A stretch of DNA of 63,829 nt from an uncultured Eubacteriales bacterium (GTDB taxonomy: Bacteria > Bacillota_I > Bacilli_A > RFN20 > JAISJY01): positions 8,974 through 72,802 of the forward strand of contig CAZYEI010000003.1 of NCBI GenBank assembly GCA_964646425.1, given 5' to 3'. Below are positions 33,967 through 46,350 of the stretch, piece by piece. The position numbers and the translations under genes are program-made. The stretch's first letter is position 1, and the number at the start of each line of letters is the position of its first letter. The notes beneath the pieces were generated by a model. The model was not told the DNA's origin and made no database searches. It saw only the letters and a list, made by a program, of their open reading frames with translations.

Positions 33967-34968
33967 ATGTTATATGTAGCTATTATATTGATTGTTATAG
34001 TTATATTGTTATTTATCTTTGCTTTATTTATTTATCAAGGAATATTTGGTCATCGTGAAGAAAAAAAAGAAGGATTAAAATATTTTTCTAATGAAGAATT
34101 TGATAATATAGGTAAAACTATTTATTCATTTATGTCTAAAGAATGTAAAATCAATGGATTTGTATATGAAAAAAATGATAATTTAAATGCTAAAGGTATT
34201 GTAGTTTTAGCTCATGGAATGGGTGGCGGACATATTAATTATATGAAAGAAATATGTTACTTTGCTTCATTAGGATATAAAGTTATTTCATATGATAATC
34301 ACGGAACAATGTTAAGTGAAGGGAAAAGTTTAAATGGATTTGAACAAGCTGTCATTGATTTAAGATCATGTATTTTAGACATTCAAAGTAGAATAGAGTT
34401 TGTAGGTTTGAAAGTTATTCTATATGGCCATTCATGGGGTGCATATAGCGTAAGTAGTGTGTCAAATTTTGAAGATGTTCATGTAGATGGAATTATTTCA
34501 TTAGCAGCTTTTAATTCTCCCTCTGTCATTTTAACAAAAATGATAAAAATGCAAATTAATCCTATATTTGTTAGCTTATATCCTTTCTTTTGGCTTATTG
34601 AATTTTTAAAATTCGGAAAAATATGTAATTATACATCGTTAAAAGGTTATAAGAAATGTAATTGTCCGCTTTTATTAATTCATGGAAGAAAAGATCAACT
34701 AGTTCCTATTAGTGAATTTAGATATTATCGAGAAAATTTAAAAAATAAGAATGATGTTGAGTTTATAGAATTACCTACAAAGTATCATCGTCCTAATATA
34801 AGTGATGAGAGTGTTATATATGATAATTCTTTTAATATTGAAGCTTCAAAAATTTTAAAAGAAAAAGGAAACATCAAAGAGTTTTATGAAAATGCTGATT
34901 ATAATCTTTTAACAAAATTTGATGATAATGTAATGAATCGAATAAAAGATTTTATTGAAAGAATTTAA
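33967..34968 (+). CDS. Membrane-anchored alpha/beta hydrolase
   Basis: N-terminal TM, AHGMGGG, YDNHG...SEG, GHSWG nucleophile elbow, IHG.KD. Confidence 0.85.
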   Translation: MLYVAIILIVIVILLFIFALFIYQGIFGHREEKKEGLKYFSNEEFDNIGKTIYSFMSKECKINGFVYEKNDNLNAKGIVVLAHGMGGGHINYMKEICYFASLGYKVISYDNHGTMLSEGKSLNGFEQAVIDLRSCILDIQSRIEFVGLKVILYGHSWGAYSVSSVSNFEDVHVDGIISLAAFNSPSVILTKMIKMQINPIFVSLYPFFWLIEFLKFGKICNYTSLKGYKKCNCPLLLIHGRKDQLVPISEFRYYRENLKNKNDVEFIELPTKYHRPNISDESVIYDNSFNIEASKILKEKGNIKEFYENADYNLLTKFDDNVMNRIKDFIERI

Positions 34969-34995
34969 TTTTTTGATTAATTTCATAAAGAAAAC

Positions 34996-35024
34996 TTGAA
35001 AAATGATTTTTGAAATAATATAAT
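34996..35024 (+). promoter_or_regulatory. sigA promoter of a small RNA
   Basis: TTGAAA-17 nt-TATAAT; predicted +1 at G35031. Confidence 0.8.
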
Positions 35025-35030
35025 AATATT

Positions 35031-35081
35031 GTCAAAGTAGTTCGAAAGGGGAACCCGGTACGGTTCCCCTTTCTTTTTTTT
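35031..35081 (+). ncRNA. Candidate ~51-nt antisense / antitoxin-like RNA
   Basis: 13-nt single-stranded 5' end, then a 12-bp perfect GC-rich stem (35044-35073) and U8; the 5' 13-mer recurs at 35097-35109. Confidence 0.6.
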
Positions 35082-35115
35082 GAGGTTATTAGTAACGTCA
35101 AAGTAGTTCAAATCC

Positions 35116-35238
35116 TTACTTTAGTTTTCGATATTCTTTTAAGAATAGAATAAACAGAAATAATACTAATATTACTTCCATTATAAAGTAAAATAGAACT
35201 ACTAAGAGTTAGTAATACCCTCTCAGTTCTTTGAACAT
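35116..35238 (-). other. Unannotated hydrophobic small-peptide reading frame, interrupted by an in-frame TAA
   Basis: SD GAGGTG, then MFKELRGYY*LLVVLFYFIMEVILVLFLFILFLKEYRKLK*; intact 21-codon sub-ORF at 35181-35116. Confidence 0.45.
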
Positions 35239-35447
35239 TAACCAATCACCTCATTATACAATTCTCCTTTTTTGCTTTTTAACCTTAAAAAAAATAATAA
35301 AAATAAATATATTGCTATTATCTATTATTGCAGTAGTCATTCTATTTTAAATGCTTTTAAAACTATTATAAATATTGTATAATAATTAAGATTATAAAAA
35401 TGGGGAATATTATTATAAATAATATTACAAAGGAAGGAGTGTTTATC

Positions 35448-38400
35448 ATGGACATTTCATTAGTAAAGCAAAAAGTATTAAATTTTTGGAATATCGTTAA
35501 AATCAAATGGAAGAAAATAAAAAATCATGAATATTTTAAAGCATTTGTATTTACGTTTTTGGTTGGCTTTTTCTTATTTGCGCTTGAAGCAGCTCCTAAT
35601 GGTTTTACTTTATTTTTAAATGGCGATTATTCTTTACAATCTTTATCTTTTTATGCTGATGGATACACAAAAATGTGGAGGTTCTTTAGAACAGGCGAAT
35701 TTCCAATGTTTGATTACTCCAATTTGTTTGGAGAAAACTATATCGGTTCTCAAAGTTTTTATTATTTAGGAAGTCCTTTCTTTTGGCTATTATTATTAAC
35801 GCCGAGACCATTATTATATCAAGGGATTTATTTCTCGATGATTTTAAAATTAGCTGTTGGTGGCTTGTTCTTTTATATTTTATTAAGAAAATATTTTAAT
35901 ATAAGTGAAAAAGTTTCGTTAATAGGGGCTTGTTGTTATGCGTTCTCGGGATGGACTATGTATTATTTATGGTTTCATTTTGGAGATGCATTAGCATTTT
36001 TTCCTTTAATTATTATTGGTATAGAAATGGTGCTTCAAAAGAAAAAGGGATGGGCGTTAACGCTTGGCTTATTTTTTAGTTGTGTTACGAACTATTTCTT
36101 TGGTGCGACATTTGTTATATTTGGCGTATTATATGCTTTATTTAGGTGGATTCAAATTTATGGGATTACTAAAAGAAAGGGATATAACGTCAAAGAAAGA
36201 TGGGGAGTATTACTTCAAGGTATTTTATATTATATTGCAGGTGTAGGTCTTGCCGCTTTTATCCTTATGCCTGCAAGTGTAAGTGTTGCTGATTCTGGAA
36301 GAGCAGAGACTAATATTTTAGATACATTTTTAAGTTTTTTCTTAAAATCTAGTACAGATATTGAAGGTCAAATAACATATAGTGGTTTGAAATCTTTTAG
36401 TGATATATTTTCAAAAGAAAATCTAACAGCATTATTTGATTTTTCATTCAAATGGGAAGAAAATAGACCAGCAAATGGAATGGAAATTTCTTCAACCCAA
36501 ACAAGATATTATATCCTATCTAATTTCTTATTTATTAACTCAAATTGTTGGGGTGGAACATTATTTAATAATGCTCAGTTAGATAACAATTTAGGAGGAT
36601 TTTTTGTTACTACTCCAATTGCACTGTTGTTAATTCCAAGTTTAATTAGAGCAGTCAAGTCAAAAAAGAAATGGACTATATTTGGATGCATTGTCTGTTT
36701 AATTGCACCTTTTGTGCCAATAACTTTTTACTTATTCCATGTATTTACGTATCCTTATGGTCGTTGGCAAATCATTATTGTATTAGTATCATTAATCTTT
36801 TTATTAAAAACATTAGATGATTTTGATGATCTTAAATTACATGAATTTATTCCTGGAGCGATATTTAATGTTGTTTTAGCTGTCTATTTAATTATATATT
36901 CATATTATAATGGAACTTTAGATTCAACTTATTCAATTTATTTATTTGGTGAATATCGTGAAATAAAATATCAATTATTAATAGTTTCTTTACAAGTTGT
37001 TTATATATTGCTAGTAGGATTAGCTACGATTACTGTTTTATTGCTAAAGAAACACAAAGTAAATATAAGTACTGCTAAAGTTAAACATGCAGCTTTAGTG
37101 TTGGTAATTCTTGAACTGTTTGTTCAAGCTACTGTAACTGTTAATGCTCATGGATATGCTTCTTATTCTTCTTTTTATGGAGGACAAGCAATCTTAAATT
37201 CTCAAAGAAAAATAATTAATAATTTAACTGAAGAAGATTCACAATTTTATCGAATTTATAATGAAATGGCAACAAGAGGATATGTTAATCATCCTTCAAC
37301 ATTATCATATAATGGTTTATCAATGTTCAACTCTATATATAATAATGAGAATGATGATTTTATTAAGCGTTCTCGCTTATCGTACAATAATTCTTGGATT
37401 GCAGCAGTTCATGAAAAAAGAAACTACTTGGATGAATTTTTAGGAGTAAAGTATTATATTGTTTCTCGTAATGATCCTAATAATGATGGTTATTACTTTA
37501 AAGATTGGACAGACCATGATACTGCTGATTTATATTATGAAGGAAGAGTAAATCAATATACGTCTTCACAAAATTATAATTTGAATATTCCTGGTGGTTA
37601 TCAATATCGTGATGATTTAAGTAATGATGATTTTATGGTGTATGAAAATGCTAATTTTATTGAATTGGGTTTTGCTTATGATACTTATATCGCTTCATCT
37701 GTTATCGGTCCTAATTTGGATGGATATTTAAGTCCTAATGGATATCTTGATTCAAGTTATTATGAAAAATCATACTTCAACGCTGTTATTGTTGAAGATG
37801 ATGATTTAGAAGAAGAATTTTTACAAAAATATACAAAATTAAAATCAAAGCCTGTTTTTGATACAGTAACATCTTTAAGCAGTGGCAACTTCAATATATA
37901 CTTAAAACCTAGGGAAGATGTTAGCAAGTCAATAGTAGAAGATGGAAGAGATTTAGTTCGTATCTTGTCTAATAATGGCATTAAAGATTATTTTTCAAAT
38001 AGTGAATATGGTACAATTTTACATGGAAGATGGACAGATCATCAAAGTATAGATGAACAAGGCCAAACTTACTCAAATCCTTATTTTGGTGATCAAATAG
38101 TTATTGAGCCAAAGAGTGCCTCAATTTGTAAGGATGCAAGTGATACTAATACATGTAATATGAGTATTAAATTTCAAATGGGACCACAAGTAGTTATTAG
38201 TCTTTATAATGGAGATACATTAATTACTCAAGATGCACATATGACTCATAATTATTCAATGTCAAATAAATGGGGCGAATATAAAATGGAAAGGGGATTC
38301 TATAGCAATCAAGAAGTTACCAAGATTGTTATCGAATTTATTAATGATGCGAAAATAGATGATTTTGAAATAAGTGATTTTCAAATTAAATATGAGTATC

Positions 38401-44981: not shown

Positions 44982-45090
44982 TATTACTACTCTTTTTATC
45001 TATAAAAAAGCAATATTTTATTAATATTTATTGTTTTGTTAATAATTAGTTTATTTAATTTTATTAAAATATTGAAATGGAGGGGGAAAA

Positions 45091-46350
45091 ATGAATCAAA
45101 AATTTATCGATATGATAAATAAGCTTAATTTAAATGATGTTTTTCTAGTTGCAGTATCTGGTGGGCCGGATTCAATGGCACTACTCCATATGCTTAAAAA
45201 TTATTCAATAAAAATCGTTGTTTGTCATGTAAATTATAAAACAAGAAATGAAAGTGATTTTGAAGAAGAACTTGTAAGAAAATATGCTATAGAAAATAAT
45301 TTGATTTTTGAATATTGCAATGTAAGCAAAAATGATATTGCTAACTTCCAAGATAGTGCTAGAGTATTTAGATATGCCTTTTTTAAAAAAATGTATGATA
45401 AATACAATGCTAAGGGATTAATAGTAGCTCATCATTTAGATGATTCTTTAGAAACATATTTATTACAAAAAAAGCGAAAAAGTATTGTAAGACATTATGG
45501 TATTGCTTATCATACTTCGTTAATGGGAATGGAAGTATATCGTCCTTTACTTGCTTATCGCAAAAAAGAGTTATTAGAATTTTGTCAAAAAAATGAAATT
45601 CCCTATTCTATTGATTACACAAATAATCTCCCTAAATATCAAAGAAATATTATTAGATTAAATACAATCAATAATTTAACTGATAAAGAATTATGTGCTT
45701 TGATAGAAGAAATGAACCAGAAAGAAAAAGAGAATGAATTGCTTTTTGAACAAGTTAATGACTTGTTAAATAAATGCTTATTAAATGAATTTTTAGATGT
45801 AAATATTTTTAGGGGAATAGCAGAGAAGTATAAGATTTATGTTTTATATTCATATTTACAACCATTAATATTAAGAAGTTCTAAAGTTTTATCGAAATCA
45901 TTTTTAAAGGATTTAATTCAGCAAATTGAAGATTGTCAAAGTAATAAGAAATATATAATTGATCGGAAGTATTTTTTGTATCAAGAGTATAATAAGCTTC
46001 ATGTTGAGAAAAATGAAGAAATCAGTTATTGTTATTACTTAAATAAAAATGAGGAAATTATTACTCCATATTTTAGTGTTAATAAAACTGGAGATAATAA
46101 GAATGGAATTTATCTAGCTGATGATGAATATCCTATAATGATTAGAAATTATCGTGATGGTGATGAAATTGTTTTAGAAAACGGTCATAAAAAATTACGA
46201 AGATGGTTTATAGATAAAAAAGTACCATTGTCTAAAAGAAAAAAGATCCCTTTATTATTTAATTGTCAGGGGAAATTAGTTTATATTCCTTATTTATACA
46301 AGGATTTTGAGCGTAAAAACTTGCAATCAACTTTATTTATGATAGAATAA
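45091..46350 (+). CDS. tilS: tRNA(Ile)-lysidine synthetase
   Basis: VAVSGGPDSMALL, HVNY, AR..RY, AHH.DD..ET, RPLL, RN.IR. Confidence 0.95.
   Translation: MNQKFIDMINKLNLNDVFLVAVSGGPDSMALLHMLKNYSIKIVVCHVNYKTRNESDFEEELVRKYAIENNLIFEYCNVSKNDIANFQDSARVFRYAFFKKMYDKYNAKGLIVAHHLDDSLETYLLQKKRKSIVRHYGIAYHTSLMGMEVYRPLLAYRKKELLEFCQKNEIPYSIDYTNNLPKYQRNIIRLNTINNLTDKELCALIEEMNQKEKENELLFEQVNDLLNKCLLNEFLDVNIFRGIAEKYKIYVLYSYLQPLILRSSKVLSKSFLKDLIQQIEDCQSNKKYIIDRKYFLYQEYNKLHVEKNEEISYCYYLNKNEEIITPYFSVNKTGDNKNGIYLADDEYPIMIRNYRDGDEIVLENGHKKLRRWFIDKKVPLSKRKKIPLLFNCQGKLVYIPYLYKDFERKNLQSTLFMIE

What the first reader, a model, noticed from the sequence alone, without database searches (positions are those of the whole stretch)
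34996..35252. Unannotated type I toxin-antitoxin-like locus: 51-nt RNA, 13-nt repeat and a self-sequestering peptide mRNA
Seen: a near-consensus promoter (TTGAAA-17-TATAAT) starts at the G of GTCAAAGTAGTTC (35031-35043), followed at once by a 12-bp terminator and U8. The same 13-mer recurs at 35097-35109, 7 nt past the stop of a convergent hydrophobic frame MFKELRGYY*LLVVLFYFI-MEVILVLFLFILFLKEYRKLK (SD GAGGTG). On that mRNA, 35196-35203 pairs with 35102-35109 (8 bp). 35184-35193 pairs with 35114-35123 (10 bp; two G-U pairs valid only on the - strand). Together these clamp the region just upstream of the second AUG to the stop codon and 3' UTR. The sRNA 5' end is complementary to the outer clamp. 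Known: convergent sRNA plus a hydrophobic, C-terminally basic peptide, shared direct repeats and 5'-3' mRNA fold-back typify Fst/par, TxpA/RatA, Hok and AapA systems. Inference: a new type I TA or peptide switch. The in-frame TAA is either a detoxifying mutation or a 9-codon leader controlling the 21-aa peptide.
Basis: partly seen in the sequence, partly recalled or inferred. Interest (0 to 1): 0.7.

Follow-up and report, generated by a model that had tools for sequence, protein, structure and literature searches.

The report
Candidate type I toxin-antitoxin-like RNA cassette
Between two ordinary genes of an uncultured, very AT-rich gut bacterium sits a conserved promoter-plus-terminator unit for a tiny (about 51-nt) RNA, facing a strongly folded opposite-strand RNA that carries a broken toxin-like membrane-peptide frame; it looks like a small, lineage-restricted type I toxin-antitoxin-style cassette, but no transcript, toxicity or relative could be shown.

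Summary

**Best supported: the + strand unit**
- It runs promoter TTGAAA-17-TATAAT, then 13 nt, then a 12-bp hairpin with U8.
- In two diverged relatives the hexamers and the 13-mer are unchanged (0 of 25 positions). Surrounding spacer and loop bases change at 23-28%, and one stem pair changes compensatorily.

**Opposite strand**
- The RNA folds far better than shuffles (-50.1 kcal/mol, z -5.6).

**Against a working toxin**
- The in-frame TAA is real and is kept in a related strain.
- The 21-aa frame has no SD.
- The - strand has no clear promoter or terminator.
- No peptide or DNA relative was found in any collection searched.
- No RNA data exist.

**Context and verdict**
- The hairpin is also the only terminator of the upstream operon.
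- The spacer is a variable hotspot that holds a type II TA pair in one relative.
- Verdict: a plausible new type I TA-like antisense cassette with an attenuated or decayed toxin frame, confidence about 0.4. It is not a member of the Fst, Hok or TxpA families. Interest is moderate.

The parts
34996..35024 (+). Sigma-70-type promoter TTGAAA-17-TATAAT for the short RNA
   Evidence: 11 of 12 match. It is one of only 9 such sites in 64 kb. Both hexamers are unchanged in the X strain and in L001, while the 17-nt spacer carries 3-4 changes.
35031..35081 (+). Predicted 51-nt RNA: a 13-nt single-stranded 5' tail followed by a terminator hairpin and U8
   Evidence: Folds at -22.1 kcal/mol with the tail unpaired. 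The start is inferred from the -10 position. No transcript data exist.
35031..35043 (+). 13-mer copy 1 (GTCAAAGTAGTTC), the proposed seed of the short RNA
   Evidence: Exact repeat. It runs from the predicted +1 to the base of the hairpin. 0 of 13 positions change in two relatives.
35044..35081 (+). Intrinsic terminator (12-bp stem, 6-nt loop, T8). It is also the only terminator after the upstream hydrolase/polysaccharide operon.
   Evidence: In the X strain one stem pair changes G-C to U-A (35048/35069) and the loop changes at 4 of 6 positions.
35082..35086 (-). Anti-SD (CCUC within ACCUC on the - strand)
   Evidence: Pairs with SD GAGG 35252-35249 with probability 0.97-1.0. GAGGTTATTA is unchanged in L001 and the X strain.
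35097..35109 (-). 13-mer copy 2. Its complement on the - strand RNA is the target of the short RNA's tail, and within the fold it pairs with the first AUG region.
   Evidence: Duplex energy -19.3 kcal/mol, opening cost 10.9 kcal/mol. Unchanged in the X strain.
35116..35181 (-). 21-codon frame MEVILVLFLFILFLKEYRKLK plus stop. It has no SD, and its AUG lies inside a 13-bp inner hairpin.
   Evidence: The three X-strain changes in this frame are 2 synonymous and 1 V>A; the fourth change in the block (35218, synonymous) lies in the upstream 9-codon frame.
35209..35238 (-). 9-codon frame MFKELRGYY ending at the in-frame TAA (35211-35209)
   Evidence: The TAA is present in independent contigs of the X strain. 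It lies in the loop of a local hairpin.
35247..35252 (-). Shine-Dalgarno GAGGTG, 8 nt before ATG 35238
   Evidence: Sequestered in the predicted fold.
35082..35252 (-). Long-range 5'-3' fold-back RNA (about 33 bp of interrupted closing helix)
   Evidence: Folding 35260..35075 gives -50.1 kcal/mol, z -5.59. The same structure is kept in the X strain at -50.2 kcal/mol.
35324..35351 (-). Candidate - strand promoter TTTAAA-16-TGnAATAAT (weak, 9 of 12)
   Evidence: X-strain changes fall in the spacer and at the n of TGn. The nearer candidate at 35282..35253 is not kept in the X strain.

Best explanation
This is a small, lineage-restricted antisense-RNA cassette of the type I toxin-antitoxin kind, inserted in the variable spacer between a hydrolase gene and yfhO.

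Shown or well supported:
- A conserved sigma-70-type promoter at 34996-35024 is followed, from its predicted +1, by 13 nt and an intrinsic terminator. This would give a roughly 51-nt RNA whose only single-stranded part is the 13-nt tail.

Inferred:
- A convergent - strand RNA carries a strong SD and AUG heading a frame with a toxin-like transmembrane core and a basic tail.
- This RNA folds back on itself. Its 3' UTR (CCUC plus the complement of the second 13-mer copy) sequesters the SD and the first AUG, which would keep it translationally silent, as in Hok, AapA1 and the B. subtilis toxin mRNAs.
- The short RNA pairs with the 13-nt site 7 nt after the stop.
- If the - strand RNA reads through the hairpin, the short RNA also pairs with it over its whole 51 nt. 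Such a duplex would mark the RNA for cleavage or degradation.

State of the toxin frame:
- It is interrupted by a TAA at codon 10 that predates the split of two strains.
- The peptide is therefore either inactivated or attenuated, or reduced to a 21-aa product made only by inefficient re-initiation after the 9-codon leader.
For: - Promoter quality and genomic rarity.
- Three-lineage alignment: hexamers 0 of 12 and 13-mer 0 of 13 changed, against 10-12 of 55 in other spacer positions and 4-5 of 6 in the loop, plus one compensatory stem change.
- The 13-mer repeat spans exactly from the predicted +1 to the hairpin base. It recurs 7 nt after the convergent stop.
- The - strand fold has z -5.59 with the SD and AUG paired at p about 1.0, and it is preserved in the X strain.
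- The block 35075-35262 differs at 2.7% between strains, while flanks differ at about 6-16%. No change occurs in 35075-35147.
- Three of four substitutions in the frame are synonymous, the fourth is V>A, and all are compatible with the fold.
- Only 6 of 587 stop-to-stop frames in the window are as hydrophobic, and only 2 of those also have a basic tail.
- The same spacer holds a Gp49/HTH_3 type II TA pair in relative L004.
- These general features match published descriptions of type I systems (PMC7472228; PMC5961336).
Against: - The in-frame TAA is conserved in the related strain.
- There is no SD before the second AUG.
- The strongest - strand -10 overlaps the SD and is not kept in the X strain. 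The remaining candidate promoter is weak.
- There is no U-tract after the hairpin on the - strand and no other - strand terminator.
- The element is single copy, with no paralog in the window.
- No peptide or DNA relative exists in any collection searched.
- No Pfam, NCBIfam or Rfam family matches.
- No RNA-seq data exist.
- The hairpin's conservation is explained by its role as operon terminator alone.
- The coding signal rests on only four substitutions (p about 0.1).
- The one other hydrophobic, basic-tailed frame in the window is spurious.
Confidence: 0.4

Rival explanations
1. The short + strand RNA is real, but the - strand partner is a non-coding structured RNA (or only an antisense target) and no peptide is made. 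On this reading it is an sRNA/antisense pair or a sponge with some other role, for example control of antisense transcription into the hydrolase/polysaccharide operon. The hydrophobic frame would be a by-product of T-rich sequence.
For: - The promoter and 13-mer are conserved.
- The block is conserved at nucleotide level beyond what coding alone requires, with 0 changes in 73 nt.
- The TAA is conserved and the 21-aa frame has no SD.
- The nearest -10 would start the RNA after the SD, producing perfectly paired 5' and 3' ends.
- The other hydrophobic frame in the window is spurious.
Against: - A strong SD with 8-nt spacing and an AUG lies in the same frame as a rare transmembrane-plus-basic-tail frame.
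- Substitutions are biased to synonymous in that frame.
- The SD pairs specifically with an anti-SD.
Confidence: 0.25
2. Ordinary intergenic DNA. The hairpin is simply the terminator of the upstream operon. The promoter-like site, 13-mer repeat and inverted-repeat block are relics of an old insertion or duplication in a variable spacer and have no present function.
For: - The hairpin is the only terminator after the hydrolase gene. Relatives have their own, different terminators at the same place.
- The spacer content differs in every relative.
- There are no homologs anywhere and no RNA evidence.
- Promoter-like sites are frequent in 26% GC DNA: 14 were found against 9.3 expected.
Against: - 0 of 25 changes in the hexamers plus 13-mer, against 23-28% in adjacent spacer and loop positions, in two relatives.
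- The block is more conserved than the neighbouring protein genes.
- z -5.6 for the fold.
- The repeat boundaries coincide with the predicted +1 and the hairpin base.
Confidence: 0.2
3. A cis-acting leader or attenuator. Transcripts from the 34996 promoter read through the hairpin conditionally and continue into yfhO, with the 13-mer copies and the GAACTACT element forming alternative structures on the + strand.
For: - The promoter points toward yfhO.
- The + strand RNA is also well folded, z -4.67.
- Both 13-mer copies can pair with 35196-35203 on the + strand.
Against: - yfhO has its own promoter (35356-35383), and that is the only part of the spacer conserved in all relatives.
- Relatives lack the block entirely yet keep yfhO.
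- Only 13 nt precede the terminator, which leaves no room for an anti-terminator.
- The - strand fold is 13 kcal/mol more stable and uses G-U pairs that are C-A mismatches on the + strand.
Confidence: 0.07
4. A remnant of a miniature inverted-repeat mobile element. The block 35082-35222 has imperfect terminal inverted repeats of about 28 nt.
For: GAGGTTATTAGTAACGTCAAAGTAGTTC against the reverse complement of 35196-35222 matches at about 21 of 28 positions. The spacer is a hotspot for insertions.
Against: - Single copy in the window.
- In the X-strain runs its assembly depth equals that of the flanks.
- No target-site duplication at its ends.
- No other copy in any collection.
Confidence: 0.04

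Closest known systems
par (pAD1) Fst / RNA I-RNA II of Enterococcus faecalis and the Fst/Ldr family (PMC7472228)
   Same: - A very short antitoxin-sized RNA (about 40-65 nt) made of a 5' tail plus terminator.
- Convergent layout around one terminator hairpin.
- A DNA direct repeat on either side of that hairpin, which makes the two RNAs complementary outside the overlap.
- An intramolecular structure hiding the SD.
- A chromosomal location between unrelated operons.
   Different: - The mRNA's repeat copy lies in the 3' UTR, 7 nt after the stop, not at the translation start. The short RNA therefore cannot directly mask the SD or AUG.
- The hairpin has a U-tract on one strand only.
- The peptide has no PXXXG motif, no Pfam hit, and an internal TAA.
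Bacillus subtilis 3'-overlap systems (txpA/RatA, bsrG/SR4, bsrE/SR5) and Clostridioides difficile CD2517.1/RCd8, CD2907.1/RCd9 (PMC5961336)
   Same: - The antisense RNA meets the 3' end of a toxin mRNA.
- The toxin mRNA is highly structured with a sequestered ribosome-binding site.
- The toxin is under 60 aa, with a hydrophobic N-terminal part and a positively charged C-terminus.
- The host is a low-GC Firmicute.
   Different: - Known antitoxins are 130-280 nt with overlaps of 75-280 nt; here the RNA is 51 nt with a 13-nt seed.
- No sequence similarity.
- The frame is interrupted.
- No experimental data.
hok/sok (with mok) and Helicobacter aapA1/IsoA1
   Same: - Long-distance 5'-3' fold-back that keeps the full-length mRNA inert.
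- A short upstream reading frame that could couple translation to the toxin frame, as mok does for hok.
   Different: - Here the leader frame ends 27 nt before the second AUG instead of overlapping it.
- No Hok or AapA similarity.
- The antisense RNA targets the 3' end, not the 5' end.
- A different phylum.
Ordinary intrinsic terminator of an operon
   Same: A 12-bp G+C-rich hairpin with U8, 76 nt after the hydrolase stop. It is the only terminator there. A compensatory stem change occurs in a relative.
   Different: It is preceded by a conserved near-consensus promoter and an invariant 13-mer that is repeated 66 nt downstream. A terminator needs none of these.

Membership tests
Fst/par (Fst/Ldr) type I TA | Convergent promoters for toxin mRNA and antitoxin RNA | tested here: inconclusive
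   The short-RNA promoter is strong and conserved. The - strand has only weak candidates. The best one overlaps the SD and is lost in the X strain.
Fst/par (Fst/Ldr) type I TA | Shared bidirectional intrinsic terminator | tested here: not met
   The U8 lies on the + strand only. On the - strand the hairpin is followed by GAACUACUUUGAC, and the scan finds no - strand terminator.
Fst/par (Fst/Ldr) type I TA | Direct repeats transcribed in opposite directions that pair the antitoxin with the toxin's translation initiation region | tested here: not met
   A 13-nt direct repeat flanks the hairpin. The mRNA copy lies in the 3' UTR after the stop, and the translation start has at most 5 nt complementary to the short RNA.
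Fst/par (Fst/Ldr) type I TA | Intramolecular structure sequestering the SD and 5' end of the toxin mRNA | tested here: met
   By prediction only. The SD-CCUC pairing has p 0.97-1.0, the AUG is paired at p 1.0, and the fold has z -5.59.
Fst/par (Fst/Ldr) type I TA | Fst-like peptide (hydrophobic domain with PXXXG(C), charged tail; family profile match) | tested here: not met
   No Pro or Gly in the hydrophobic core. No Pfam or NCBIfam toxin hit at E up to 10.
Type I TA in general | Intact small ORF (under 60 aa) for a hydrophobic membrane peptide with a charged C-terminus and a usable ribosome-binding site | tested here: inconclusive
   The frame has the right composition, which is rare in the window. 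It is split by a conserved TAA, and the 21-aa part has no SD.
Type I TA in general | Antisense RNA complementary to the toxin mRNA, encoded at the same locus | tested here: met
   At sequence level only: a 13-nt perfect match at -19.3 kcal/mol, and 51 nt if the - strand RNA reads through the hairpin. Transcripts were not observed.
Type I TA in general | Peptide is toxic and the RNA neutralises it | not testable with these tools
   Needs expression experiments.
Hok/Sok | Hok/Gef peptide family and a Sok-type 5' antisense RNA | tested here: not met
   No family hit and no Rfam hit. The antisense RNA lies at the 3' end.
Intrinsic terminator of the upstream operon | G+C-rich hairpin followed by a U-tract downstream of the last gene, with no other terminator | tested here: met
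   A compensatory change occurs in the X strain. Relatives carry different terminators at the same place.
MITE-like repeat element | Multiple copies with terminal inverted repeats and a target-site duplication | tested here: not met
   Single copy. No duplication at the block ends. No copies elsewhere.

The most novel reading that the evidence does not exclude
The 51-nt RNA is not an antitoxin but an activator ('anti-clamp'). By pairing with the 13-nt 3'-UTR copy, which itself holds the first AUG region shut, it would open the fold-back. Translation of the 9-codon leader, and through it the 21-aa membrane peptide, would then depend on the small RNA. Two GAGG motifs (the SD at 35252-35249 and codons 6-7 at 35222-35219) compete for a single CCUC. 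This would be an RNA-activated micro-peptide switch with a conserved, deliberate stop codon, rather than a decayed toxin.
Probability: 0.08. Interest if true: 0.65.

Novelty: new member of a known kind. Interest (0 to 1): 0.4.

Why it matters
- If real, this would be a new, sequence-orphan type I TA-like family from an uncultured, poorly sampled gut Firmicute lineage. Neither of two neighbour-gene scans of 185,579 reference genomes found a relative of that lineage.
- Its antisense RNA would be unusually minimal: a 13-nt seed plus a terminator.
- Its layout would differ from par. The repeat targets the 3'-UTR element that also closes the mRNA fold.
- The conserved in-frame stop makes it a possible natural example of a toxin frame that was attenuated while its RNA partners stayed under selection.
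- The practical value is modest. It is one locus, with no expression data and no culture.

Tried and rejected
**Searches for relatives, all empty or unrelated**
- Repaired 40-aa peptide against 5.8 billion proteins: no candidate.
- The 30-aa post-TAA part by HMMER against 1.84 billion representatives: 0 hits.
- Pfam and NCBIfam: only a 15.8-bit chance hit to a membrane-protein family.
- Rfam at gathering and at permissive thresholds: only terminator-driven sub-threshold hits.
- blastn against plasmids and phages: none.
- The 13-mer-gap-13-mer pattern in viral contigs: none.
- The same pattern in JGI metagenomes: 5 hits, all Ser-rich coding repeats, tandem duplications or a CRISPR-like array.
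- TATAAT plus 13-mer in viral contigs: 5 chance hits inside phage genes.
- Reference-genome scans with the hydrolase and with a YfhO alignment: none.

**Look-ups that gave nothing**
- Exact-protein look-ups of window ORFs: none.
- A YfhO N-terminus protein search returned only 43-50% relatives and was of no use.

**Attempts to recover the rest of the L001-lineage locus**
- A conserved 64-mer from the window found no run.

**RNA and paralogs**
- RNA runs: none.
- Paralogs in the window: none.

**Readings rejected**
- MITE: the block is single copy with no target-site duplication.
- TAA as a sequencing error: it is seen in independent contigs of another strain.
- TAA as a sense codon: neighbouring genes end in TAA.
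- The 45-aa TTG frame (35245..35108) as the real gene: its start is 1-2 nt from the SD, and strain differences there are mostly non-synonymous.

Full report
**Setting.** The window is about 26% G+C and comes from an uncultured gut organism. Only four gut-metagenome runs of one study hold a related strain, here called X, as short contigs. The finding lies in the 430-nt spacer between two + strand genes:
- Upstream is a 333-aa alpha/beta hydrolase (33967-34968), the last gene of a polysaccharide-type cluster with Wzz, CpsB and a CpsD-like ATPase.
- Downstream is a YfhO-family gene.

**Observation.**
- TTGAAA-17-TATAAT (34996-35024) is an 11 of 12 match.
- The window has only nine sites that good. 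Four of the five on the + strand are intergenic, and the other three lie directly before genes.
- GTCAAAGTAGTTC occurs exactly twice, at 35031 and 35097. The other close 13-nt repeats in the window are A/T low-complexity.
- The 12-bp hairpin plus T8 (35044-35081) is the only terminator-like site within 1.2 kb.
- On the - strand, GAGGTG (35252-35247) lies 8 nt before ATG 35238. The frame then reads MFKELRGYY, TAA (35211-35209), LLVVLFYFI, MEVILVLFLFILFLKEYRKLK, stop (35118-35116).
- Both claimed pairings are exact.

The - strand RNA 35260..35075 folds at -50.1 kcal/mol, with z -5.59 and none of 200 shuffles as good.
- The closing helix is about 33 bp long and interrupted.
- SD GAGG pairs with CCUC at 35085-35082 (p 0.97-1.0).
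- The first AUG and codons 2-3 pair with the complement of 13-mer copy 2 (p about 1.0).
- The second AUG sits in a 13-bp inner hairpin, and the TAA lies in a hairpin loop.
- The + strand fold is weaker at -37.2 kcal/mol, z -4.67.
- If the RNA started at 35246, after the nearest -10, an alternative fold forms.

**Comparative evidence, + strand unit.** Hydrolase homologs led to neighbouring loci.
- L001 is 84.8% identical in nucleotides and colinear. Its contig ends at the position equivalent to 35091.
- The differences of strain X were read from contigs.
- In the three-way alignment of 34969-35091:

| Element | Changed in X | Changed in L001 |
|---|---|---|
| Two promoter hexamers | 0 of 12 | 0 of 12 |
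| 13-mer copy 1 | 0 of 13 | 0 of 13 |
| GAGGTTATTA (anti-SD strand) | 0 of 10 | 0 of 10 |
| Stem | 2 of 24 (one compensatory G-C to U-A pair) | 0 of 24 |
| Loop | 4 of 6 | 5 of 6 |
| U-tract | 1 of 8 | 3 of 8 |
| Remaining positions | 10 of 55 | 12 of 55 |

- At the background rate of 23-28%, zero changes in 25 positions has a probability of about 0.001 per lineage.
- The + strand promoter and the 13-nt tail are therefore under selection. This is the firmest result of the study.

**Comparative evidence, - strand block.**
- In strain X, 35075-35262 has 5 substitutions (2.7%) and none in 35075-35147. The flanks differ at about 6-16%.
No other frame does as well.
- With four sites this is weak evidence (p about 0.1).
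- All changes are also neutral for the fold, which is -50.2 kcal/mol in X.
- The TAA is present in X. It is therefore neither an error nor a recent lesion.

**The spacer is a hotspot.** More distant relatives (62-69% hydrolase identity) lack the module.
- L005/L006 and L012 have a short spacer with their own terminator.
- L002/L003 and L013/L014 carry small + strand genes there.
- L004 carries three - strand genes, including a Gp49/HTH_3 (HigB/HigA-like) type II pair.
- Only the yfhO promoter region (35346-35399) is shared by all.

**Is the peptide frame more than composition?**
- Of 587 stop-to-stop frames of 30-70 codons in the window, 6 contain a 20-aa stretch with GRAVY of at least 2.8. 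Two of these also end in a basic tail, and this frame is one of them.
- The other (45006-45119) is merely a T-rich promoter region with no start codon. Such frames can therefore arise by chance in intergenic DNA.

**Weak points of the toxin-antitoxin reading.**
- The SD-led frame stops after 9 codons.
- The 21-aa frame has no SD, and its AUG is buried in a hairpin.
- The best - strand promoter (35282..35253) would start the RNA after the SD. In X it has a 19-nt spacer and TATAGT.
- A weaker TTTAAA-16-TGnAATAAT site (35351..35324) is kept.
- The hairpin has no U-tract on the - strand. A - strand RNA would therefore read on, antisense to the short RNA's gene and to the hydrolase 3' end. It would then be fully complementary to the 51-nt RNA (cofold gain -51 kcal/mol).
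- For the 13-nt site alone, the duplex is -19.3 kcal/mol against an opening cost of 10.9 kcal/mol.
- No RNA data exist.
- No relative of the peptide, the RNA or the DNA was found anywhere.

**Interpretation.**
- Most likely (about 0.4) this is a lineage-restricted type I TA-like antisense cassette. Its short RNA and folded partner are maintained, and its toxin frame is attenuated or decayed.
- It works like the 3'-overlap systems of Bacillus and Clostridioides (PMC5961336).
- It shares with par/Fst the repeat-around-a-terminator idea (PMC7472228).
- It fails the defining tests of the Fst family: position of the repeat, bidirectional terminator and peptide motif. It also matches no Hok, TxpA or other family.
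- Rivals:

| Rival | Confidence |
|---|---|
| Real short RNA with a non-coding partner | 0.25 |
| Ordinary terminator plus relics | 0.2 |
| yfhO leader or attenuator | 0.07 |
| MITE remnant | 0.04 |

**Verdict.** If real, this is a new member of a known kind, of moderate interest. The next step is transcript mapping and expression tests.

Noticed in passing
L004:2991-4151 (- strand), the same hydrolase-yfhO spacer in a relative: A 120-aa Gp49 (HigB-like) protein, a 120-aa HTH_3 (HigA-like) protein and a 132-aa unknown gene occupy the spacer. The site is therefore a hotspot that accepts toxin-antitoxin cargo.
   Followed up: partly
window 35400-35450: The longest YfhO ORF starts at ATG 35400. 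The SD-backed start (AAGGAAGGAG, then ATG 35448, MDIS...) is the one shared with relatives. The yfhO promoter TTTAAA-16-TATAAT (35356-35383) is the only spacer segment conserved in all relatives.
   Followed up: partly
window 35246-35271 (- strand): A two-codon mini-ORF, AUG AGG UGA (35254-35246), has its own SD AAGGAG (35271-35266). Its stop overlaps the downstream SD GAGGUGA. In strain X its start codon is GUG. Its function, if any, is unknown.
   Followed up: no
L001:6003-6123: The 14.4-kb contig of the closest other lineage ends inside the module, at the position equivalent to window 35091. Its U-tract is TCCTTTT rather than T8. Whether the peptide block follows could not be recovered.
   Followed up: partly
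window 45006-45119 (+ strand): This is the only other frame in the window with a strongly hydrophobic stretch and a basic tail. It has no start codon and is the T-rich promoter and leader of the gene at 45091. It served as a caution about chance hydrophobic frames.
   Followed up: yes
L002:5179-5738 and L013:1725-2126: Other relatives carry small + strand genes with a lipoprotein-like signal (…LTIFTGC…) right after the hydrolase gene. In L002/L003 they are called as two overlapping ORFs (62 and 124 aa), which may be a frameshifted single gene.
   Followed up: no
whole window / reference genome collection: YfhO is 81-85% identical among the metagenomic relatives. Yet neither it nor the hydrolase found any relative among 185,579 species-representative genomes. 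The lineage appears unrepresented there, or the exact-word scan missed it.
   Followed up: partly
window 34966-34968: The hydrolase stop codon is TAA in the window and TAG in strain X (34968 A>G). The 18 nt after it are almost unalignable between lineages, and conservation resumes about 9 nt before the -35 hexamer.
   Followed up: yes
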